From positions 352,001 through 416,000 of the forward strand of contig CBDHDF010000002.1 in NCBI GenBank assembly GCA_965261545.1: 64,000 bases of DNA, in the 5' to 3' direction. Source of the stretch: Bdellovibrionales bacterium (GTDB taxonomy: Bacteria > Bdellovibrionota > Bdellovibrionia > Bdellovibrionales > UBA1609). How positions within the stretch are numbered: position 1 is the stretch's first letter; each line of letters begins with the position of its first letter. Position numbers and translations under genes: made by a program. The notes below the pieces were generated by a model. That model was given only the letters and a program-made list of their open reading frames with translations, had not been told where the DNA came from and did not search any database. Shown in pieces: positions 24,850 through 56,412 of this stretch.

Positions 24850-26738
24850 GGGACTGTAAAAATAATTGTGTAACTGCAATTTTTTTCTTAAATCTTAAAG
24901 CCACTTATGTGGCTCCACTCCTGGTAAAAAGCACAGTCCCATATTATTCGTCAATGTATAATTGACATTTTTTCCTTCAAGCGATTTTGTCAGTCACAAT
25001 GCATTATAAGTTAATGGGGAGGTGGACATCTTCGCTGGTCTATATAATTGGCCTCTTTAGTTACTCTGGACTTTTGATTGTATTATGGAGCCGTAATGGG
25101 ATCATATCAGAACTGGAAAGAACTCAAATAAATAATTATCATCTTGGTTGAAAAAAAATCAGCAATGGCTCTCTCAAAAAAATGGAAATTCCAATCTCAT
25201 CAAAGGGTTCATGTGTTTAGGTTCCCATACTATATTACCCCCTTTTTTTTATTTTTTTTAACTTAGGATATTCGAGAAATACCAGAATTGGGATGAAATA
25301 TGAAAAAAAATGGGAACCCAAATCTGCACCAAGAGGGCATGTATTTAGGTTCCCATACTATATTACCCTAACCATAGTCTCGGTATTCCAGTACTTCTGT
25401 CAACGCCTTAGAGGGGCTTTTAAGCCCCCTTATAAGGCAGGTGGTGGACCTTATTAAAAAACTTAGTTGTCAAAACGGTCACCGTATTCAATGGCAAACC
25501 TGTTCATGGCTGGCTTCCAGTTGTGTAATGGTCGTGTCCATCGCTTAGAGGCCATTTTTATCGCTAAATATACAACTTTTAAAGCCGACCGATCACTGGG
25601 AAATATCTTACGATTTCTGATCGCCTTGCGGATCACGCTATTTAACGACTCTATGGCGTTTGTGGTATAAAAAATCTTTCTGATTTCATCCGGATAATCG
25701 AAAATAGTGATGAGATTGTCCCAATTCCTACGCCAAGACTTTTCAATATTCGGATACTTTGAAGACCACTTGGTACAAAATTCCTCAAGGGCCTTTTCAG
25801 CTTCTGTCAGAGTCGTAGAGCCATAAATGGACTTGAGGTCTTGGGCGACAGCTTTCATATCCTTGGAAGGGACATAGCGAAGGGAATTGCGGACCATATG
25901 GACAATGCACAGTTGTACTTTAGACTTGGGAAAAGCCGCTGAAATGGCTTGAGGAAAACCTGTAAGACCATCTACAGAAAATATAAATACGTCTTTCAAC
26001 CCTCGATTTTGCAGCTCAGTCAAAACACTCAACCAAAACTTTGAACCCTCATTTTCAGAAATCCATAGGCCCAACAAGTCTTTCTGACCCTCCTCTGTAA
26101 TACCAAGAGCTAGGTAAATCGCCTTATTAATAACTCTCTTGTCTTGATGGACCTTCACCACGATACAGTCCAAAAATACGATAGGGTAAGTGCTATCCAA
26201 GGGGCGGTTCTGCCAAGCCGTAACTTCATCAATAACAGCATCCGTCACGTTGGCTATCACTGAGTGGGATATCTCTGCACCATGGTAGAGGTCTTTGATA
26301 GCTCCTTGAATATCCCTGGTCGTCATTCCCCTCGCATAGAGGGTCAGGATACTGTCTTCAAAGCCCTCAAGACGAGTCTTACCCTTGGGAATGACTTGGG
26401 GCTCAAAGGAGGCACTTCGGTCACGGGGGACCTGAAGCTCCACCTCGCCTTTCTCTCCCTTTATGGTCTTTCTACTGTAACCATTGCGAGTGTTGGATTT
26501 GCGGGTCTCAGACTTCTCATGCCTCTCATAACCTAGGTGATCGTCCATTTCCGCATTAAGAGCTGTCTCTAAAACAACCTTCATCAGTTGACCCGTTATG
26601 TCGGATAAATCCTTTTGGGTCTTGACGTTCTTCGCTAGTTCCTTGCCTATTGTCTTGATATCCATTTTGCCTTCTCCTTTCAGGATGATAGTTCATCCTA
26701 ATATGATTCGGCAGTTACACAAAATAGTTTACAGGCTC
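24850..26738 (-). mobile_element. IS256-family element, copy 1 (intact, intron-free)
   Basis: TIRs GGGACTGTAAAAATAATTGTGTAACTGC and GAGCCTGTAAACTATTTTGTGTAACTGC; 8-bp TSD GATTTTGT. Confidence 0.94.
25463..26665 (-). CDS. IS256-family (Mutator-type) transposase, 400 aa
   Basis: RNGY, VPRDR, YARGMTTRDI, QLCIVH and YTTNAIESLN motifs. Confidence 0.95.
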   Translation of the reverse strand: MDIKTIGKELAKNVKTQKDLSDITGQLMKVVLETALNAEMDDHLGYERHEKSETRKSNTRNGYSRKTIKGEKGEVELQVPRDRSASFEPQVIPKGKTRLEGFEDSILTLYARGMTTRDIQGAIKDLYHGAEISHSVIANVTDAVIDEVTAWQNRPLDSTYPIVFLDCIVVKVHQDKRVINKAIYLALGITEEGQKDLLGLWISENEGSKFWLSVLTELQNRGLKDVFIFSVDGLTGFPQAISAAFPKSKVQLCIVHMVRNSLRYVPSKDMKAVAQDLKSIYGSTTLTEAEKALEEFCTKWSSKYPNIEKSWRRNWDNLITIFDYPDEIRKIFYTTNAIESLNSVIRKAIRNRKIFPSDRSALKVVYLAIKMASKRWTRPLHNWKPAMNRFAIEYGDRFDN

Positions 26739-38223: not shown

Positions 38224-39070
38224 GAGCCTGTAAACTATTTTGTGTAACTGCCGAATCATATTAGGATGAACTATCATCCTGAAAGGAGAAGGCAGAATGG
38301 ATATCAAGACAATGTGTGCCACGAAGTCACGGAGGTGACATGCTGATGTGAAGATGGAGGTAGGTCCTCCGCACTCGGATTTCAGGATTTGAGTGCAAAC
38401 AACCTTGCTGCTGCATGGGAGGCAAGGCCCTTGTAGTGAGCGAGCAAGGAAAAGGCCGTAGTAAACGGTCATGTAAGTACTAGGGAGATGAGCGAAAGCA
38501 AACCCACCGACGACGCATCGAAAGATTAACAGTCGCGTCAAAACCGAAGGAAGGTTGTCTCCGTCGGGATAAGTCTAGAGGAAGCCTGATGACCGATCTA
38601 GACGGCGTGCGGTGTATAGGGGGCATGAACCTAGTACAGGCTTCGTATCGGAACGTGGGAACCTGCTGGTGGATGATAAGGGAAACGCTATAAGGGAGAC
38701 CCCCGAAGTGCTAAATACCGATGCCACCAACCAGGGGCAGAGTGATTCGTAGTAGTGATGAAGTTCTTGTAATGAGAATGGAGCGAAGGGGTCACATGAT
38801 TTATGGAAGTAGTCAGGCCAACTTGGTTATGCTGAGGAGGAGCCTAATGAAACGGAAAATCATAGGAGCCGTGTGAGGGGAGACTTTCAAGCACGGTTCT
38901 GTGAGGGGCAGTGGGGGAAGTTCCCACTGCCTACTCGATAGGCAAGGAACTAGCGAAGAACGTCAAGACCCAAAAGGATTTATCCGACATAACGGGTCAA
39001 CTGATGAAGGTTGTTTTAGAGACGGCCCTTAATGCGGAAATGGACGATCACCTAGGTTATGAGAGGCATG
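38224..39070 (+). mobile_element. IS256 copy 2: 5' fragment carrying a group II intron, cut off by IS21
   Basis: TIR GAGCCTGTAAAC...; transposase start MDIKTI/GKELAKNVK. Confidence 0.9.
38314..38939 (+). ncRNA. ORF-less group II intron (626 nt), copy 1
   Basis: 5' GTGTG; domain V GAGCCGTGTGAGGGGAGACTTTCAAGCACGGTTC; domain VI hairpin ending CCTACTCGAT; precise insertion without TSD relative to the intact IS256. Confidence 0.93.
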
Positions 39071-44489: not shown

Positions 44490-44761
44490 CAATTATCTTC
44501 ATTTTAACCTCATCTTCTATGCCCACAAAGCATTCAAAAACACCAAGGTTTACAAAAAAGCCAATACAAGACGCTTTTTAAGAATCTCCTCCAGCCTCTT
44601 CTTTCTTTTTTTTTGGCTTTTATAGTCTTTGTCGTTCCCATGACTCTTCAAGTTGAGCACTCTCCTGTACAAAGGGCTCAGTAGACTCGCTGTATCTACA
44701 GACTCGTCACTGTAAAAGGCTCCATAAGCTTCTTTAACGAGGTATCAAAGTCCTTTTTGCC

Positions 44762-45634
44762 TTAGAACACCTTCGGAGAAAATTCTTTTTGATTGGTGAT
44801 GGTGGCACTATTGCCGGTAGCTCGGATTACAAAAAGACCTTTTTTTTCAGCCTTGTTATGAGCCCCTTCATTGGCCTTCAAATAAGCTATGGCACCGTAA
44901 ATTATCTTGTCTTTGTACTCTGGAAAAATATCTTTAAACATGCCGAGCTTTTCTATAAAATGGTCAAGGTGATGATTTTTTAAAGTGGTTTTTACTTCCA
45001 CAACAACAACCTCCCGCCCATTGACTGCAATGATATCAACCTCGTATTCTTCTCCATTCCGCCTGCGAAAATTTTCCTGGGCAAGCCCCATCACTTGGAT
45101 ATTTCTTTCATTGAGAAGCCTTACCAAGTCACCTTTAACAAGGCTTTCTATCAGTTTTCCCCATTGCCCCGTAAACAATTCATTGAGTTCTCTTGTTCTT
45201 TTTTCCAAGTGAGCATGGCGAATATCTGCCTTTTTGGATATTTCTTTCAAATAACGATCTGTCTCCTTCCTTTGAAGTTTGGCTTCCTCCCTTTGAAGTT
45301 CGGCCTCCTTGGACATCTCTTTGAAATGACGGTCTGTCTCCTTCCTTTCAAGGTCGGCCTTCTCCCTTTGAAGTTCGGCCTCCTTGGACATCTTTTTCAA
45401 ATAACGATCTGTCTCCTTCCTTTCAAGGTCGGCCTCCTTGGACATCTTTTTGAAGTGACGGTCTGTCTCCTTCCTTTGGAGATCAGCCTCCTTGGACATC
45501 TCTTTGAAATGACGGTCTGTCTCCTTCTGTTGGAGACTTGTCTCTTCTTGGGATTTTGCTACCTTCTCCATAAGCTTCCACACAACTTCAGGACCTACTT
45601 TCTTAGCACTATCTGGCATTGACGCCTCCTTCAT
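44762..45634 (-). CDS. A15: coiled-coil PD-(D/E)XK-like protein
   Basis: Intact ORF. Confidence 0.88.
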   Translation of the reverse strand: MKEASMPDSAKKVGPEVVWKLMEKVAKSQEETSLQQKETDRHFKEMSKEADLQRKETDRHFKKMSKEADLERKETDRYLKKMSKEAELQREKADLERKETDRHFKEMSKEAELQREEAKLQRKETDRYLKEISKKADIRHAHLEKRTRELNELFTGQWGKLIESLVKGDLVRLLNERNIQVMGLAQENFRRRNGEEYEVDIIAVNGREVVVVEVKTTLKNHHLDHFIEKLGMFKDIFPEYKDKIIYGAIAYLKANEGAHNKAEKKGLFVIRATGNSATITNQKEFSPKVF

Positions 45635-45981
45635 TCATTGGCTTCACTTGACTTCACCCATTGGTTTCATTTCACAAATATCACACAACAAAGGCACATG
45701 CAAAAATAAGTCCTTATCTTCATTTTAACCTCATCTTCTATGCCCACAAAGCATTCAAAAACACCAAGGTTTACAAAAAAGCCAATACAAGACGCTTTTT
45801 AAGAATCTCCTCCAGCCTCTTCTTTCTTTTTTTTTGGCTTTTATAGTCTTTGTCGTTCCCATAACTCTTCAAGTTGAGCACTCTCCTGTACAAAGGGCTC
45901 AGTAGACTCGCTGTATCTACAGACTCGTCACTGTAAAAGGCTCCATAAGCTTCTTTAACGAGGTATCAAAGTCCTTTTTGC

Positions 45982-46938
45982 CTAGAACACCTTCGGAGAA
46001 AATTCTTTTTGATTAGTGATGGTGGCACTATTGCCGGTAGCTCGGATTACAAAAAGACCTTTTTTTTCAGCCTTGTTATGAGCCCCTTCATTGGCCTTCA
46101 AATAAGCTATGGCACCGTAAATTATCTTGTCTTTGTACTCTGGAAAAATATCTTTAAACATGCCGAGCTTTTCTATAAAATGGTCAAGGTGATGATTTTT
46201 TAAAGTGGTTTTTACTTCCACAACAACAACCTCCCGCCCATTGACTGCAATGATATCAACCTCGTATTCTTCTCCATTCCGCCTGCGAAAATTTTCCTGG
46301 GCAAGCCCCATCACTTGGATATTTCTTTCATTGAGAAGTCTTACCAAGTCACCTTTAACAAGGCTTTCTATCAGTTTTCCCCATTGCCCCGTAAATAATT
46401 CGTTGAGCTCTTTCGTTCTTTTTTCCAAGTGAGCATGGCGAATATCTGCCTTTTTGGATATTTCTTTCAAATAACGATCTGTCTCCTTCCTTTCAAGGTC
46501 GGCCTTCTCCCTTTGAAGTTTGGCTTCCTCCCTTTGAAGTTTGGCTTCCTCCCTTTGAAGTTCGGCCTCCTTGGACATCTCTTTGAAATGACGGTCTGTC
46601 TCCTTCCTTTCAAGGTCGGCCTTCTCCCTTTGAAGTTCGGCCTCCTTGGACATCTTTTTCAAATAACGATCTGTCTCCTTCCTTTCAAGGTCGGCTTCCT
46701 CCCTTTGAAGTTCGGCCTCCTTGGACATCTTTTTGAAGTGATGGTCTGTCTCCTTCCTTTGGAGATCGGCCTCCTTCCTTTGGAGATCAGCCTCCTTGGA
46801 CATCTCTTTGAAATGACGGTCTGTCTCCTTCTGTTGGAGACTTGTCTCTTCTTGGGATTTTGCTACCTTCTCCATAAGCTTCCACACAACTTCAGGACCT
46901 ACTTTCTTAGCACTATCTGACATTGACACCTCCATCAC
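45982..46938 (-). CDS. A14: coiled-coil PD-(D/E)XK-like protein
   Basis: Intact ORF. Confidence 0.88.
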   Translation of the reverse strand: MMEVSMSDSAKKVGPEVVWKLMEKVAKSQEETSLQQKETDRHFKEMSKEADLQRKEADLQRKETDHHFKKMSKEAELQREEADLERKETDRYLKKMSKEAELQREKADLERKETDRHFKEMSKEAELQREEAKLQREEAKLQREKADLERKETDRYLKEISKKADIRHAHLEKRTKELNELFTGQWGKLIESLVKGDLVRLLNERNIQVMGLAQENFRRRNGEEYEVDIIAVNGREVVVVEVKTTLKNHHLDHFIEKLGMFKDIFPEYKDKIIYGAIAYLKANEGAHNKAEKKGLFVIRATGNSATITNQKEFSPKVF

Positions 46939-47262
46939 CCATTGGTTTCATTTCACAAATATCACACAACAAAGGCACATGCAAAAATAAGTCCTTATCT
47001 TCATTTTAACCTCATCTTCTATGCCCACAAAGCATTCAAAAACACCAAGATTTACAAAAAAGCCAATACAAGACGCTTTTTAAGAATCTCCTCCAGCCTC
47101 TTCTTTCTTTTTTTTTGGCTTTTATAGTCTTTGTCGTTCCCATGACTCTTCAAGTTGAGCACTCTCCTGTACAAAGGGCTCAGTAGACTCGCTGTATCTA
47201 CAGACTCGTCACTGTAAAAGGCTCCATAAGCTTCTTTAACGAGGTATCAAAGTCCTTTTTGC

Positions 47263-48156
47263 CTAGAACACCTTCGGAGAAAATTCTTTTTGATTGGTGA
47301 TGGTGGCACTATTGCCGGTAGCTCGGATTACAAAAAGACCTTTTTTTTCAGCCTTGTTATGAGCCCCTTCATTGGCCTTCAAATAAGCTATGGCACCGTA
47401 AATTATCTTGTCTTTGTACTCTGGAAAAATATCTTTAAACATGCCGAGCTTTTCTATAAAATGGTCAAGGTGCTGATTTTTTAAAGTGGTTTTTACTTCC
47501 ACAACAACAACCTCCCGCCCATTGACTGCAATGATATCAACCTCGTATTCTTCTCCATTCCGCCTGCGAAAATTTTCCTGGGCAAGCCCCATCACTTGGA
47601 TATTTCTTTCATTGAGAAGCCTTACCAAGTCACCTTTAACAAGGCTTTCTATCAGTTTTCCCCATTGCCCCGTAAACAATTCATTGAGTTCTCTTGTTCT
47701 TTTTTCCAAGTGAGCATGGCGAATATCTGCCTTTTTGGATATTTCTTTCAAATAACGATCTGTCTCCTTCCTTTCAAGGTCGGCCTTCTCCCTTTGAAGT
47801 TTGGCTTCCTCCCTTTGAAGTTCGGCCTCCTTGGACATCTTTTTGAAGTGATGGTCTGTCTCCTTCCTTTGGAGATCGGCCTCCTTGGACATCTTTTTGA
47901 AGTGATGGTCTGTCTCCTTCCTTTGGAGATCGGCCTCCTTGGACATCTTTTTGAAGTGATGGTCTGTCTCCTTCCTTTGGAGATCGGCCTCCTTCCTTTG
48001 GAGATCAGCCTCCTTGGACATCTCTTTGAAATGACGGTCTGTCTCCTTCTGTTGGAGACTTGTCTCTTCTTGGGATTTTGCGACCTTCTCCATAAGCTTC
48101 CACACAACTTCAGGACCTACTTTCTTAGCACTATCTGACATTGACGCCTCCATCAC
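47263..48156 (-). CDS. A13: coiled-coil PD-(D/E)XK-like protein
   Basis: Intact ORF. Confidence 0.88.
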   Translation of the reverse strand: MMEASMSDSAKKVGPEVVWKLMEKVAKSQEETSLQQKETDRHFKEMSKEADLQRKEADLQRKETDHHFKKMSKEADLQRKETDHHFKKMSKEADLQRKETDHHFKKMSKEAELQREEAKLQREKADLERKETDRYLKEISKKADIRHAHLEKRTRELNELFTGQWGKLIESLVKGDLVRLLNERNIQVMGLAQENFRRRNGEEYEVDIIAVNGREVVVVEVKTTLKNQHLDHFIEKLGMFKDIFPEYKDKIIYGAIAYLKANEGAHNKAEKKGLFVIRATGNSATITNQKEFSPKVF

Positions 48157-48480
48157 CCATTGGTTTCATTTCACAAATATCACACAACAAAGGCACATGC
48201 AAAAATAAGTCCATTATCTTCATTTTAACCTCATCTTCTATGCCCACAAAGCATTCAAAAACACCAAGATTTACAAAAAAGCCAATACAAGACGCTTTTT
48301 AAGAATCTCCTCCAGCCTCTTCTTTCTTTTTTTTTGGCTTTTATAGTCTTTGTCGTTCCCATGACTCTTCAAGTTGAGCACTCTCCTGTACAAAGGGCTC
48401 AGTAGACTCGCTGTATCTACAGACTCGTCACTAAAAGGCTCCATAAGCTTCTTTAACGAGGCATCAAAGTCCTTTTTGCC

Positions 48481-49503
48481 TTAGAACACCTTCGGAGAAA
48501 ATTCTTTTTGATTGGTGATGGTGGCACTATTGCCGGTAGCTCGGATTACAAAAAGACCTTTTTTTTCAGCCTTGTTATGAGCCCCTTCATTGGCCTTCAA
48601 ATAAGCTATGGCACCGTAAATTATCTTGTCTTTGTACTCTGGAAAAATATCTTTAAACATGCCGAGCTTTTCTATAAAATGGTCAAGGTGCTGATTTTTT
48701 AAAGTGGTTTTTACTTCCACAACAACAACCTCCCGCCCATTGACTGCAATGATATCAACCTCGTATTCTTCTCCATTCCGCCTGCGAAAATTTTCCTGGG
48801 CAAGCCCCATCACTTGGATATTTCTTTCATTGAGAAGCCTTACCAAGTCACCTTTAACAAGGCTTTCTATCAGTTTTCCCCATTGCCCCGTAAATAATTC
48901 GTTGAGCTCTTTCGTTCTTTTTTCCAAGTGAGCATGGCGAATATCTGCCTTTTTGGATATTTCTTTCAAATAACGATCTGTCTCCTTCCTTTCAAGGTCG
49001 GCCTTCTCCCTTTGAAGTTTGGCTTCCTCCCTTTGAAGTTCGGCCTCCTTGGACATCTTTTTCAAATAACGATCTGTCTCCTTCCTTTCAAGGTCGGCCT
49101 TCTCCCTTTGAAGTTTGGCTTCCTCCCTTTGAAGTTCGGCCTCCTTGGACATCTTTTTGAAGTGATGGTCTGTCTCCTTCCTTTGGAGATCGGCCTCCTT
49201 GGACATCTTTTTGAAGTGATGGTCTGTCTCCTTCCTTTGGAGATCGGCCTCCTTGGACATCTTTTTGAAGTGATGGTCTGTCTCCTTCCTTTGGAGATCG
49301 GCCTCCTTGGACATCTTTTTGAAGTGACGGCCTGTCTCCTTCCTTTGGAGATCAGCCTCCTTGGACATCTCTTTGAAATGACGGTCTGTCTCCTTCTGTT
49401 GGAGACTTGTCTCTTCTTGGGATTTTGCTACCTTCTCCATAAGCTTCCACACAACTTCAGGACCTACTTTCTTAGCACTATCTGGCATTGACGCCTCCTT
49501 CAT
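48481..49503 (-). CDS. A12: coiled-coil PD-(D/E)XK-like protein
   Basis: Intact ORF. Confidence 0.88.
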   Translation of the reverse strand: MKEASMPDSAKKVGPEVVWKLMEKVAKSQEETSLQQKETDRHFKEMSKEADLQRKETGRHFKKMSKEADLQRKETDHHFKKMSKEADLQRKETDHHFKKMSKEADLQRKETDHHFKKMSKEAELQREEAKLQREKADLERKETDRYLKKMSKEAELQREEAKLQREKADLERKETDRYLKEISKKADIRHAHLEKRTKELNELFTGQWGKLIESLVKGDLVRLLNERNIQVMGLAQENFRRRNGEEYEVDIIAVNGREVVVVEVKTTLKNQHLDHFIEKLGMFKDIFPEYKDKIIYGAIAYLKANEGAHNKAEKKGLFVIRATGNSATITNQKEFSPKVF

Positions 49504-51903: not shown

Positions 51904-52950
51904 ATGCCAGTCAAAAGCAGTCTCAGCAAGATACGTCAAAGTATTTCTTACCTATTTTTCAAAGATATCTTTGAATCTCTGATTACAGACTACGAACCAT
52001 TGAGAAAAACGTTTCATGGTTTTTATATCTATGCCATAGATGGCGACCAATTAGCACTTCCTCGCTCTAAAGATCTTTTAAAGGAGGGTTATTGTGGGTA
52101 CCCTTGCCCAAATGAGATGGAAACTCATTTCTTACGTATGTATCTATCTCATGCTTATGACGTTTTATCGGGTGTGACAAAGAATCTTTGCTTTTCTCCC
52201 GCTCTCAACGAAATCGCCAATGCTATTCAAATGATAGGTAGTTTTGAGAGTAATAGCATAACTCTCTACGATAGGCTTTATTTATCTACAGAGATTATTA
52301 AGGCCCATGCTCAAGCCAGTAACTTCTTTATTGCGCGTTGTAAGCGAGGCTCTACTTTTATCCCCATTGTAAATTTATTTAATGGCCCAGGTTGGTATTC
52401 ACGAATGGTTATTGAGGGGGTGGTCATTCATCTCTATAAGTATAAAAACCCAAAGACTGGGGAGTTCTCTGTTTTGGCCACTAATCTTCCGCATGGCTCC
52501 TTGGACAAGAAGGATATGGTTGCTCTTTACTCTCGTCGTTGGGAAATAGAAACGACATTTCGTGATTTTACATCGACAATGAAAATGGAGCAGTGGCACT
52601 CAACAAGCCTTAATGGAATATTGCAAGAGCTGTATTCTTATTTTTGGCTCTTCAATTATACAAAGATTCAAATGAGCATAAATGAGGATGAAGACAGTGT
52701 GAATCAGTTGGTAAAAAATGACTACAAAAAACCTAACTTTAAACTGATTCTTGATTTCATAATGGATAGCATCCCCCTTTTTGTTGCGGGGCTCTATCAG
52801 AAATTTAGGAAGCAGATAAAGTTGCTGATGAAGATTTCAATGGAGAAGAGGAGGCACTTCAAAAGAAGCTATGAAAGGTCTATCAAAAGGGCTGGGAGTT
52901 CTTTTAAAAGAAATAGCTTAACGCAGAGGCAGAGGGGTGTGGTGGCTTAA
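51904..52950 (+). CDS. IS4-family transposase
   Basis: As copy 1. Confidence 0.88.
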   Translation: MPVKSSLSKIRQSISYLFFKDIFESLITDYEPLRKTFHGFYIYAIDGDQLALPRSKDLLKEGYCGYPCPNEMETHFLRMYLSHAYDVLSGVTKNLCFSPALNEIANAIQMIGSFESNSITLYDRLYLSTEIIKAHAQASNFFIARCKRGSTFIPIVNLFNGPGWYSRMVIEGVVIHLYKYKNPKTGEFSVLATNLPHGSLDKKDMVALYSRRWEIETTFRDFTSTMKMEQWHSTSLNGILQELYSYFWLFNYTKIQMSINEDEDSVNQLVKNDYKKPNFKLILDFIMDSIPLFVAGLYQKFRKQIKLLMKISMEKRRHFKRSYERSIKRAGSSFKRNSLTQRQRGVVA

Positions 52951-53045
52951 GGAAAGAGCCTGTAAACTATTTTGTGTAACTGCCGAATCATATTAGGATG
53001 AACTATCATCCTGAAAGGAGAAGGCAGAATGGATATCAAGACAAT

Positions 53046-53671
53046 GTGTGCCACGAAGTCACGGAGGTGACATGCTGATGTGAAGATGGAGGTAGGTCCT
53101 CCGCACTCGGATTTCAGGATTTGAGTGCAAACAACCTTGCTGCTGCATGGGAGGCAAGGCCCTTGTAGTGAGCGAGCAAGGAAAAGGCCGTAGTAAACGG
53201 TCATGTAAGTACTAGGGAGATGAGCGAAAGCAAACCCACCGACGACGCATCGAAAGATTAACAGTCGCGTCAAAACCGAAGGAAGGTTGTCTCCGTCGGG
53301 ATAAGTCTAGAGGAAGCCTGATGACCGATCTAGACGGCGTGCGGTGTATAGGGGGCATGAACCTAGTACAGGCTTCGTATCGGAACGTGGGAACCTGCTG
53401 GTGGATGATAAGGGAAACGCTATAAGGGAGACCCCCGAAGTGCTAAATACCGATGCCACCAACCAGGGGCAGAGTGATTCGTAGTAGTGATGAAGTTCTT
53501 GTAATGAGAATGGAGCGAAGGGGTCACATGATTTATGGAAGTAGTCAGGCCAACTTGGTTATGCTGAGGAGGAGCCTAATGAAACGGAAAATCATAGGAG
53601 CCGTGTGAGGGGAGACTTTCAAGCACGGTTCTGTGAGGGGCAGTGGGGGAAGTTCCCACTGCCTACTCGAT
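53046..53671 (+). ncRNA. ORF-less group II intron, copy 2
   Basis: Same 626-nt sequence as 38314-38939. Confidence 0.93.
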
Positions 53672-54297
53672 GTGTGCCACGAAGTCACGGAGGTGACATG
53701 CTGATGTGAAGATGGAGGTAGGTCCTCCGCACTCGGATTTCAGGATTTGAGTGCAAACAACCTTGCTGCTGCATGGGAGGCAAGGCCCTTGTAGTGAGCG
53801 AGCAAGGAAAAGGCCGTAGTAAACGGTCATGTAAGTACTAGGGAGATGAGCGAAAGCAAACCCACCGACGACGCATCGAAAGATTAACAGTCGCGTCAAA
53901 ACCGAAGGAAGGTTGTCTCCGTCGGGATAAGTCTAGAGGAAGCCTGATGACCGATCTAGACGGCGTGCGGTGTATAGGGGGCATGAACCTAGTACAGGCT
54001 TCGTATCGGAACGTGGGAACCTGCTGGTGGATGATAAGGGAAACGCTATAAGGGAGACCCCCGAAGTGCTAAATACCGATGCCACCAACCAGGGGCAGAG
54101 TGATTCGTAGTAGTGATGAAGTTCTTGTAATGAGAATGGAGCGAAGGGGTCACATGATTTATGGAAGTAGTCAGGCCAACTTGGTTATGCTGAGGAGGAG
54201 CCTAATGAAACGGAAAATCATAGGAGCCGTGTGAGGGGAGACTTTCAAGCACGGTTCTGTGAGGGGCAGTGGGGGAAGTTCCCACTGCCTACTCGAT
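53672..54297 (+). ncRNA. ORF-less group II intron, copy 3 (directly abutting copy 2)
   Basis: Junction ...CCTACTCGAT|GTGTGCCACG... Confidence 0.93.
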
Positions 54298-54347
54298 AGG
54301 CAAGGAACTAGCGAAGAACGTCAAGACCCAAAAGGATTTATCCGACA

Positions 54348-54592
54348 GGGTGTGCTAACGATATACTGTAGATTATATACCCACAGCGTCAATTTGTGCC
54401 CTCTTCAATCAGCATTTAGTCATAGGTTGAGCTCGACACTGTCGGTTTAAGGCCTTAAAATTTTCATCAATCCCTTAAAAGTTCAATACAAAGCACTTGC
54501 AGAGTCAATCTTGTGGGTAGATTCTTCTTAAACTGATAGTATTAAGTTAGACTAAAGGACGGTAATTTCTACAGTATATTATTAGCACACCC
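54348..54592. mobile_element. 245-bp MITE
   Basis: 25-bp TIR GGGTGTGCTAA(CG/TA)ATATACTGTAGA; 8-bp TSD ATCCGACA. Confidence 0.92.
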
Positions 54593-56412
54593 ATCCGACA
54601 TAACGGGTCAACTGATGAAGGTTGTTTTAGAGACGGCCCTTAATGCGGAAATGGACGATCACCTAGGTTATGAGAGGCATGAGAAGTCTGAGACCCGCAA
54701 ATCCAACACTCGCAATGGTTACAGTAGAAAGACCATAAAGGGAGAGAAAGGCGAGGTGGAGCTTCAGGTCCCCCGTGACCGAAGTGCCTCCTTTGAACCT
54801 CAAGTCATTCCCAAGGGTAAGACTCGTCTTGAGGGCTTTGAAGACAGTATCCTGACCCTCTATGCGAGGGGAATGACGACCAGGGATATTCAAGGAGCTA
54901 TCAAAGACCTCTACCATGGTGCAGAGATATCCCACTCAGTGATAGCCAACGTGACGGATGCTGTTATTGATGAAGTTACGGCTTGGCAGAACCGCCCCTT
55001 GGATAGCACTTACCCTATCGTATTTTTGGACTGTATCGTGGTGAAGGTCCATCAAGACAAGAGAGTTATTAATAAGGCGATTTACCTAGCTCTTGGTATT
55101 ACAGAGGAGGGTCAGAAAGACTTGTTGGGCCTATGGATTTCTGAAAATGAGGGTTCAAAGTTTTGGTTGAGTGTTTTGACTGAGCTGCAAAATCGAGGGT
55201 TGAAAGATGTATTTATATTTTCTGTAGATGGTCTTACAGGTTTTCCTCAAGCCATTTCAGCGGCTTTTCCCAAGTCTAAAGTGCAACTGTGCATTGTCCA
55301 TATGGTCCGCAATTCCCTTCGCTATGTTCCTTCCAAGGATATGAAAGCTGTCGCCCAAGACCTCAAGTCCATTTATGGCTCTACGACTCTGACAGAAGCT
55401 GAAAAGGCCCTTGAGGAATTTTGTACCAAGTGGTCTTCAAAGTATCCTAATATTGAAAAGTCTTGGCGTAGGAATTGGGACAATCTCATCACTATTTTCG
55501 ATTATCCGGATGAAATCAGAAAGATTTTTTATACCACAAACGCCATAGAGTCGTTAAATAGCGTGATCCGCAAGGCGATCAGAAATCGTAAGATATTTCC
55601 CAGTGATCGGTCGGCTTTAAAAGTTGTATATTTAGCGATAAAAATGGCCTCTAAGCGATGGACACGACCATTACACAACTGGAAGCCAGCCATGAACAGG
55701 TTTGCCATTGAATACGGTGACCGTTTTGACAACTAAGTTTTTTAATAAGGTCCACCACCTGCCTTATAAGGGGGCTTAAAAGCCCCTCTAAGGCGTTGAC
55801 AGAAGTACTGGAATACCGAGACTATGGTTAGGGTAATATAGTATGGGAACCTAAATACATGCCCTCTTGGTGCAGATTTGGGTTTCCATTTTTTTTCATA
55901 TTTCATCCCAATTCTGGTATTTCTCGAATATCCTAAGTTAAAAAAAATAAAAAAAAGGGGGTAATATAGTATGGGAACCTAAACACATGAACCCTTTGAT
56001 GAGATTGGAATTTCCATTTTTTTGAGAGAGCCATTGCTGATTTTTTTTCAACCAAGATGATAATTATTTATTTGAGTTCTTTCCAGTTCTGATATGATCC
56101 CATTACGGCTCCATAATACAATCAAAAGTCCAGAGTAACTAAAGAGGCCAATTATATAGACCAGCGAAGATGTCCACCTCCCCATTAACTTATAATGCAT
56201 TGTGACTGACAAAATCGCTTGAAGGAAAAAATGTCAATTATACATTGACGAATAATATGGGACTGTGCTTTTTGCCAGGAGTGGAGCCACATAAGTGGCT
56301 TTAAGATTTAAGAAAAAAATTGCAGTTACACAATTATTTTTACAGTCCCTAAGGAAACGGCATTGGTCCTAGGAGAGTAGGGGTTTTATGCACTTCCCCC
56401 TTTCGTTCACAA

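What the first reader, a model, noticed from the sequence alone, without database searches (positions are those of the whole stretch)
53046..54297. Precise head-to-tail dimer of an ORF-less group II intron
Seen: two complete 626-nt introns are joined with no intervening base (..CCTACTCGAT|GTGTGCCACG..) between the same exons that flank the single copy at 38314-38939. Established: homing normally splits the target site, and stacked group II introns are usually nested inside one another. Inference, two routes: (a) the intron re-homed into the exon1/intron junction, where IBS1/IBS2 survive and only the +1 base changes from A to G, which would let the site keep accreting copies; or (b) a reverse-transcribed intron circle recombined in, since the junction is exactly a circle junction. 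Sequential splicing, or one splice from the first 5' end to the last 3' end, could still rejoin the exons.
Basis: partly seen in the sequence, partly recalled or inferred. Interest (0 to 1): 0.8.

Follow-up and report, generated by a model that had tools for sequence, protein, structure and literature searches.

The report
Mini-intron inserted twice, back to back
Two identical copies of a small self-splicing mobile intron sit end to end inside a jumping gene, most likely because a second copy landed at the front edge of the first, an event already shown in laboratory experiments with related introns.

Summary
Window 53046-53671 and 53672-54297 are identical 626-nt ORF-less group II introns (IIB, class D-like, as RmInt1/RmInt2) with no base between them, in codon 6 of an IS256-family transposase. 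The genome holds a second dimer at C11:520568-525747, in a different IS256 allele, with copies that differ, so simple assembly duplication is unlikely. Reads could not confirm this locus.

Covariation places EBS1, EBS2 and EBS3 (U). The exon1|intron junction keeps 7/7 EBS1 pairs and a U-G wobble at +1, and one natural monomer already sits at a +1 G site. Best reading (0.72): a second retrohoming event into that junction, with a reverse transcriptase supplied in trans; no intact class D-like helper was found.

This route is published from mobility assays: RmInt2 (PMC4615759), retargeted RmInt1 (PMC4075523), EcKTE56.groEL (PMC12584367). One scan of public genomes gave 14 flanked full-length pairs, and this scan noted such tandems before on other DNA. 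One point is open: in 5 of 6 related public tandems EBS3 cannot pair with G. A clean natural example of a known behaviour. Interest 0.27.

The parts
52956..53045 (+). Exon 1: left end of an IS256-family element and the first 17 nt of its transposase gene (ATG at 53029)
   Evidence: 98.9% to the intact copy whose ORF lies at 25463-26665; PF00872
53033..53037 (+). IBS2 (-13 to -9); 3 of 5 pairs with EBS2
   Evidence: EBS2 column fixed by covariation in relatives
53039..53045 (+). IBS1 (-7 to -1); 7 of 7 pairs with EBS1, one of them a wobble
53046..53671 (+). Intron copy 1 (upstream; inferred to be the later arrival), 626 nt, ORF-less
53256..53260 (+). EBS2 of copy 1 (GAUUA); 53882-53886 in copy 2
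53286..53292 (+). EBS1 of copy 1 (GUUGUCU); 53912-53918 in copy 2
   Evidence: covaries with exon 1 in family Z, in two variant copies in this genome and in public relatives
53349..53349 (+). EBS3 of copy 1 (U); 53975 in copy 2
   Evidence: column covaries with the +1 exon base: U/A here, A/T in family Z, A/T in L046, G/C in L049
53566..53608 (+). Stub in domain IV: Shine-Dalgarno-like run and ATG giving 9 codons that run into domain V; probable remnant of the lost RT gene
   Evidence: remnant status is inference
53598..53631 (+). Domain V of copy 1, 34 nt, AGC triad (54224-54257 in copy 2)
53665..53665 (+). A at -7 in domain VI, predicted branch point (54291 in copy 2)
53671..53672 (+). Head-to-tail junction, no intervening base
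53672..54297 (+). Intron copy 2 (downstream; inferred to be the first arrival), identical to copy 1
54298..54347 (+). Exon 2, first 50 nt (IS256 transposase continues; +1 = A)
54348..54592 (+). 245-nt miniature inverted-repeat element with an 8-bp target duplication, interrupting exon 2; 7 full-length copies in the genome
54593..55898 (+). Rest of the IS256-family element and matching flank (99.3% to the intact window copy); transposase ORF fragment 54615-55736
38314..38939 (+). Monomer of the same intron at the same position of another IS256 copy
25463..26665 (-). Intact 400-aa IS256-family transposase with an empty target site
51904..52950 (+). Upstream DDE transposase gene on the same strand; possible source of read-through transcription (inference)

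Best explanation
A non-autonomous class D-like group IIB intron homes into codon 6 of an abundant IS256-family element. Step 1 (product shown): one copy inserts and gives exon1-intron-exon2. Step 2 (shown by pairing rules): this leaves the whole 5' half of the target in place, and the new +1 base is the intron's own first G, which wobble-pairs with EBS3 U. Step 3 (inferred): a second lariat RNP, made from any copy in the genome with a reverse transcriptase borrowed in trans, reverse-splices at the exon1|intron junction and is copied into DNA, giving exon1-new-old-exon2. The target is rebuilt each time, so trimers are possible; recombination between the identical copies would return a monomer (inferred). 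Splicing (inferred): copy 1 can leave first, which gives copy 2 its true exon 1; copy 2 cannot easily go first because its neighbour pairs poorly with EBS1. It happened twice in this genome.
For: Exon1|intron junction: EBS1 7/7, EBS2 3/5, EBS3 wobble, the same as the empty IS256 site except at +1. Monomer C11:778574 lies at a site whose empty alleles have G at +1 (34 exact empty alleles). EBS positions are fixed by covariation. Second dimer at C11:520568-525747: IS256 allele differing at 5 of 10 informative columns read in both, different flank, copy 1 interrupted by a 3922-nt nested insertion, copy 2 with a 4-nt deletion seen once in the genome against 14 wild-type matches. 2 of 8 occupied exon-1 sites are dimers; 0.64 are expected if filled sites are hit as often as empty ones, P(>=2)=0.14. 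Polarity in relatives: in L046 and L052 the two copies differ (90%, 97%) and both have EBS1/EBS2 fitting exon 1; in L046 the upstream copy has EBS3 C, matching the downstream intron's G, and the downstream copy has EBS3 A, matching its exon 2 T. Published: RmInt2, class D, EBS3 U, gave two head-to-tail copies (PMC4615759); EcKTE56.groEL gave tandems in 22.4% (ORF-deleted) and 4.2% (full-length) of positive colonies, ascribed to EBS3(U)-IBS3(G) (PMC12584367); retargeted RmInt1 through C-G (PMC4075523).
Against: The two window copies are identical, so their order of arrival cannot be read. No intact class D-like RT was found in the assembly: the three closest are 5'-truncated and frameshifted, split by a 1925-nt insertion, or partial; intact RTs of other intron families exist but are only about 32-41% identical to the RTs of this intron's public relatives. 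IBS2 is weak (3/5). In 5 of the 6 class D-like public tandems that I aligned, the upstream copy's EBS3 (A in 4, G in 1) cannot pair with G, so the wobble is not a general requirement; this intron also has a natural site with a U-C mismatch at +1 (C2:236742). RmInt1 selection experiments found no wobble at EBS3-IBS3 (PMC4075523). Any protein contacts in exon 2 beyond +1 are lost at the junction and were not tested.
Confidence: 0.72

Rival explanations
1. An intron RNA circle was reverse-transcribed into a DNA circle (or head-to-tail cDNA) that recombined into the resident copy by a single crossover.
For: The junction is the same as a perfect circle junction. [quoted passage not shown] It needs no EBS3 pairing, which would fit the 5 of 6 public tandems without it.
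Against: The same paper could not isolate full-length DNA circles and reports that RmInt1 and Ll.LtrB mutant circles often carry an extra C at the junction; both junctions here have no extra base. Public stacks of unlike introns (for example L047, L055, L061, L099, whose 5' parts match at only about 66-71% over part of their length) cannot form by homologous crossover. The pairing rules already explain this case.
Confidence: 0.12
2. Assembly artefact: the assembler went twice round the intron at this locus, perhaps through the junction that exists at C11.
For: The two window copies are identical. The assembly holds 23 other near-exact tandem duplications with units of 200-6000 nt, which I did not examine.
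Against: The assembly places many longer repeats inside contigs (543 start bins for repeats of at least 2 kb at 99% identity, 131 for at least 3 kb), which points to long reads (inference). The C11 dimer has unlike copies and cannot be a plain duplication, so the junction is real at least once. 10 of 14 flanked public pairs are less than 100% identical.
Confidence: 0.08
3. The second copy inserted behind the first, using the intron's own 3' end as its binding site.
For: The last four bases of the intron pair with EBS1 (two wobbles) and +1 stays A. A different pair in this genome may have formed this way: at C11:346167/346168 one RT-encoding intron follows another directly, and its other site has a similar upstream sequence.
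Against: Only 5 of 7 EBS1 pairs, with mismatches at -5 and -6, and 2 of 5 EBS2 pairs; none of the five natural target types has two adjacent EBS1 mismatches. Marked public pairs point to upstream insertion.
Confidence: 0.05
4. One dimer arose once and was copied to the second locus by gene conversion between IS256 copies.
For: There are about 67 near-identical IS256 left ends, with mosaic haplotypes.
Against: The two dimers differ at exon markers on both sides, at -19 and from +85 on, so the tract would have to begin and end within about 100 nt of the introns. This bears only on independence, not on how the first dimer formed.
Confidence: 0.03

Closest known systems
RmInt2 of Sinorhizobium meliloti (class D, IIB3; PMC4615759, passages read)
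   Same: Class D-type intron that targets an insertion sequence; EBS3 is U; imperfect EBS2-IBS2 pairing tolerated; two head-to-tail copies, ascribed to EBS3 U pairing with the intron's first G.
   Different: RmInt2 encodes its own RT and the tandem was a plasmid-assay product; it targets IS inverted repeats. Here the intron is ORF-less, targets the IS256 transposase gene, and the tandems are chromosomal, at two loci.
EcKTE56.groEL of Escherichia coli (IIB1; PMC12584367, abstract, passages and Discussion read)
   Same: Tandem at the exon1/first-copy junction with no spacer; EBS3(U)-IBS3(G) wobble; more frequent for the ORF-deleted form (22.4% against 4.2%).
   Different: Subgroup IIB1 with an extra subdomain; target is the groEL stop codon; seen under over-expression.
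Retargeted RmInt1 (PMC4075523, passages read)
   Same: Tandem insertion because the intron's first G pairs with EBS3; same EBS1 (-1 to -7) geometry.
   Different: Engineered; Watson-Crick C-G, not wobble; wild-type RmInt1 selections showed no wobble at this position.
Twintrons and ORF-less bacterial group II introns (review PMC4424553, passages read)
   Same: Repeated homing builds stacks of introns; ORF-less introns usually rely on a related RT in trans.
   Different: Twintrons are nested, one inside another; this is side by side. The word 'tandem' does not occur in that review.
[quoted passage not shown]
   Same: The same 3'-to-5' junction in DNA.
   Different: Seen there by PCR with unknown origin; here it is embedded between two complete copies and their exons.

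Membership tests
Group II intron | GUGYG 5' end, AY 3' end, domain V with catalytic triad, domain VI with A at -7 | tested here: met
   GTGTG...AT; Rfam RF00029 66 bits and RF01999 88.5 bits in each copy; 34-nt domain V, AGC triad, A at -7; fold z-score -5.0 against 20 shuffles
Group II intron | Precise insertion without target duplication | tested here: met
   59 empty against 8 filled exon-1 sites; empty alleles for three of four other sites
Group II intron | Self-splicing or protein-assisted splicing | not testable with these tools
   needs RNA or in vitro data
Subgroup IIB | EBS1, EBS2 and a single-base EBS3 pairing with the +1 exon base | tested here: met
   covariation of all three columns with the exons across this intron, family Z and public relatives; EBS2 pairing is weak at this intron's own sites (3-4 of 5)
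Class D (IIB3, RmInt1-like) | RT with the C-terminal motif LX3AX3PXLF[V/A]HW (definition from PMC4615759) | tested here: inconclusive
   The intron has no RT. Of the two ORF-bearing relatives fetched (67-69% over 478 nt), one RT has the strict motif and one the core only. Works like class D; membership rests on relatives, no tree was built.
Subgroup IIC (label given in an earlier scan note) | No EBS2-IBS2 pairing (PMC4075523); shortened domain V with CGC triad and insertion after terminators (recalled) | tested here: not met
   EBS2 column covaries with the exon in relatives; 34-nt domain V with AGC; no terminator-like site in 52800-54700
ORF-less (non-autonomous) group II intron | No RT in domain IV; related RT available in trans | tested here: inconclusive
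   No ORF: met (9-codon stub). Helper: class D-like RT genes are present but all three are broken in this assembly.
Tandem insertion at an occupied homing site | No spacer; EBS3 able to pair with G; exon-1 binding sites intact | tested here: met
Tandem insertion at an occupied homing site | Newer copy lies upstream | tested here: inconclusive
   window copies are identical; at C11 the downstream copy has the private deletion and the upstream one a later insertion; polarity is clear only in relatives L046 and L052
Twintron | One intron nested inside another | tested here: not met
   copies are side by side; definition from PMC4424553

The most novel reading that the evidence does not exclude
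Side-by-side stacking is a common, uncatalogued fate of bacterial group II introns in nature (dimers, trimers and stacks of unlike introns, in many phyla), and it often happens without the EBS3-G pair that the papers invoke. Either reverse splicing into DNA ignores IBS3 when the 3' 'exon' is another intron's GUGYG, or a circle route works in natural genomes. A stack may also splice as one composite ribozyme, using domains I-IV of the first copy and V-VI of the last. This genome, with two dimers among eight occupied sites, would be a natural test case.
Probability: 0.2. Interest if true: 0.55.

Novelty: new member of a known kind. Interest (0 to 1): 0.27.

Why it matters
It shows that tandem insertion, so far found in my searches only as a product of mobility assays, is fixed in a natural chromosome, twice, for an intron without its own enzyme. 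An occupied site seems to be about as good a target as an empty one (2 of 8 occupied sites are dimers), so insertion does not protect a site. It also means that head-to-tail junctions amplified from DNA, often read as intron circles, can be plain chromosomal tandems. The host gene is a transposase that is disrupted anyway, so no effect on the cell is implied.

Tried and rejected
Public runs: 7 runs were listed and no RNA holder was listed; I laid 4 of the 5 holders (X1, X2, X3, X5), all contigs. No listed contig bridges 53671/53672, but none bridges the locus-specific exon2|miniature-element junction at 54347/54348 either, depth drops over the intron's 3' end in X1 and X2, and the tool leaves records out. 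No verdict on the assembly.

Metagenome scans: the exact junction and a domain I motif each gave 0 matches. Relatives: 0 of 40 related genomes match the intron; not found in those searched.

ORF-bearing parent: none found beside the 22 RT hits I examined out of the 30 listed. Tandem Repeats Finder gave nothing because its longest period is 500. The first four-way alignment misplaced the 5' ends, so I used only its domain I core and repeated it with more relatives. The first haplotype run failed on an offset and was redone. I did not fix the position of delta-prime. The right end of the IS256 was not located cleanly. Promoter scan: 2 sites against 1.8 expected, none upstream of the intron.

Rejected: class IIC; twintron; slippage at microhomology (2 nt only). 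The public scan has no denominator (introns that fit the pattern without a following GTGYG were not counted), so it gives no frequency; 34 of 76 places stayed unclassified, and some pairs at contig ends (L048, L074, L110) may be assembly loops and were left out of the 14.

Literature: four searches listed no paper whose title or abstract start describes natural side-by-side bacterial tandems; most subscription papers are outside the library, and I opened no supplements, which may list natural cases.

Full report
Observation. The window is contig C2:352001-416000 of a 4.3-Mb genome in 11 contigs. 53046-53671, 53672-54297 and 38314-38939 are 626 nt and identical, with no base at the junction. 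Rfam scores a domain I family and the domain V-VI family in all three. The dimer and the monomer share 91 nt upstream and 50 nt downstream.

The target. The exons are the start of an IS256-family transposase gene (PF00872); the intron sits after nucleotide 17, in codon 6. The genome has 67 matches to the last 30 nt of exon 1: 59 are empty and 8 are followed by this intron. Those 8 are five complete monomers, one truncated copy and two dimers, in several IS256 haplotypes, so the intron has been homing into this element repeatedly. The window monomer and the truncated copy share an upstream flank and are not independent. At the dimer, exon 2 is cut after 50 nt by a 245-nt miniature element with an 8-bp target duplication, so splicing alone would not give a transposase.

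A second dimer. The exact junction occurs twice in the genome. At C11:520568-525747 copy 1 is interrupted at position 507 by 3922 nt with a 10-bp duplication, holding two DDE transposase genes. Copy 2 lacks 4 nt at position 310-311; that deletion is seen once in the genome against 14 wild-type matches. Its IS256 differs from the window's at 5 of 10 informative columns read in both, and has another flank. An assembler does not make this by duplicating sequence. For the window locus the case is indirect: the assembly resolves many repeats longer than the dimer, but it also holds 23 other tandem duplications that I did not examine, and public runs gave no verdict.

Anatomy. Comparison with a 73% identical ORF-less family in the same genome (Z), with two variant copies and with public relatives fixes the exon-binding sites. 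EBS1 (intron 241-247) is GUUGUCU against AGACAAT; in Z it is CGGUAGU against GCTGCTG; two variant copies have changed EBS1 and matching changed exons. EBS2 (211-215) covaries with -13 to -9 in relatives but pairs at only 3-4 of 5 positions at this intron's sites. EBS3 (304) is U with +1 A here, A with +1 T at 6 of 6 Z ends, A with T in L046 and G with C in L049. Domain V has 34 nt and an AGC triad. Domain IV keeps a ribosome-site-like run and a 9-codon stub. The two ORF-bearing relatives that I fetched from the plasmid search are annotated ltrA; one carries the class D motif given in PMC4615759 and one its core. I read the intron as IIB, class D-like. An earlier scan note called this family IIC; that is not met.

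Mechanism. Scored by the same rules, the exon1|intron junction has 7/7 EBS1 pairs, 3/5 EBS2 pairs and a U-G wobble, as good as the empty site except at +1. The intron-end|exon2 junction has 5/7, with two adjacent mismatches, and 2/5. The intron accepts G at +1 in nature: at C11:778574 the 34 exact empty alleles continue with G. If filled sites were hit as often as empty ones, 0.64 dimers would be expected; 2 are seen (P=0.14). Shown: the products, the pairings, tolerance of +1 G. Inferred: that reverse splicing made the dimer, that the upstream copy is newer, the order of splicing, and the helper. The three class D-like RT genes in the assembly are broken; intact RTs of more distant intron families remain, and the assembly is 96.8% complete.

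Other genomes. One pattern scan of public genomes for an intron 3' end followed at once by GTGYG gave 79 loci, 76 distinct places after dropping three repeats. In 23 of 76 the downstream sequence begins as a copy (at least 89.5% over 280 nt) of the upstream unit. 14 of these are full-length pairs with at least 200 nt of flank on both sides; 10 of the 14 are not identical, and 7 have units of 663-839 nt, too short for an RT. L044, L066 and L071 show two junctions in a row. In 19 of 76 the downstream unit has a homologous intron end but unmatched 5' parts (unlike introns, or contig edges); 34 were not classified. In L046 and L052 both copies fit exon 1, and in L046 each EBS3 fits its own +1 base, which gives the order old-downstream, new-upstream. 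Against my reading: in 5 of the 6 class D-like tandems aligned, the upstream EBS3 cannot pair with G. The wobble is therefore enough to explain this case but is not the general rule.

What is known. PMC4615759 (passages): RmInt2, class D with EBS3 U, produced two head-to-tail copies, and the authors name this as a dispersal strategy. PMC12584367 (abstract, passages, Discussion): tandems of EcKTE56.groEL in 22.4% and 4.2% of positive colonies, ascribed to EBS3(U)-IBS3(G). PMC4075523 (passages): tandem insertion of retargeted RmInt1; no wobble selected for the wild type. [quoted passage not shown] PMC4424553 (passages): twintrons are nested; ORF-less bacterial introns are called rare. Earlier notes of this scan report such tandems in other genomes and led me to three of these papers; I gave re-homing 55% before reading them.

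Verdict. Real in the assembly, very likely real in the chromosome, and best explained by a published mechanism. New member of a known kind; interest 0.27. What remains of interest is the repeat occurrence in one natural genome and the public tandems that lack the EBS3-G pair.

Noticed in passing
L001/L003; G000 C11:346167/346168: Two different RT-encoding group II introns are joined head to tail with no spacer. The upstream one is 5'-truncated by an IS21-type element. The downstream one's other site (C10:511248) has an upstream sequence much like the first intron's 3' end, so it may target intron ends.
   Followed up: partly
G000 C2:263342-263415: A truncated RT-encoding intron of another family ends at the same IS256 exon 2, so two unrelated introns may use the same insertion point.
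   Followed up: no
L019; G000 C2:463512-464144: A chimeric 633-nt intron: 5' half from family Z, 3' half from the intron studied here.
   Followed up: partly
L014; G000 C4:185506-188822: A copy of this intron is broken by an insertion near its 3' end, followed by a whole family Z intron and then a second 3' part (485-626): a rearranged stack.
   Followed up: no
L018; G000 C10:508798-511605: An RT-encoding intron lies antisense inside a family Z intron.
   Followed up: no
   Followed up: no
L038, L047, L051, L053, L055, L059, L061, L073, L085, L087, L099, L109: Twelve Bacteroidota loci share a related intron start at the junction; in most it is an ORF-less intron of about 621-636 nt with a different intron stacked directly upstream, and the downstream exon often reads like an attC-type core (label recalled, not tested).
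   Followed up: no
window 1-37800 and 44500-49500: Dozens of near-identical genes with internal 21- and 75-nt repeats, some with a restriction-endonuclease-like domain (Hjc/UPF0102 hits), interleaved with YhgA-like transposase genes.
   Followed up: no
G000 C2, C6, C7, C10, C11: 23 further near-exact tandem duplications with units of 217-3130 nt; not checked for being IS dimers or assembly errors.
   Followed up: no
G000 C2:291100 and C2:494623: Degenerate copies of this intron with altered EBS1 sit at exons that match the altered EBS1: natural retargeting.
   Followed up: yes
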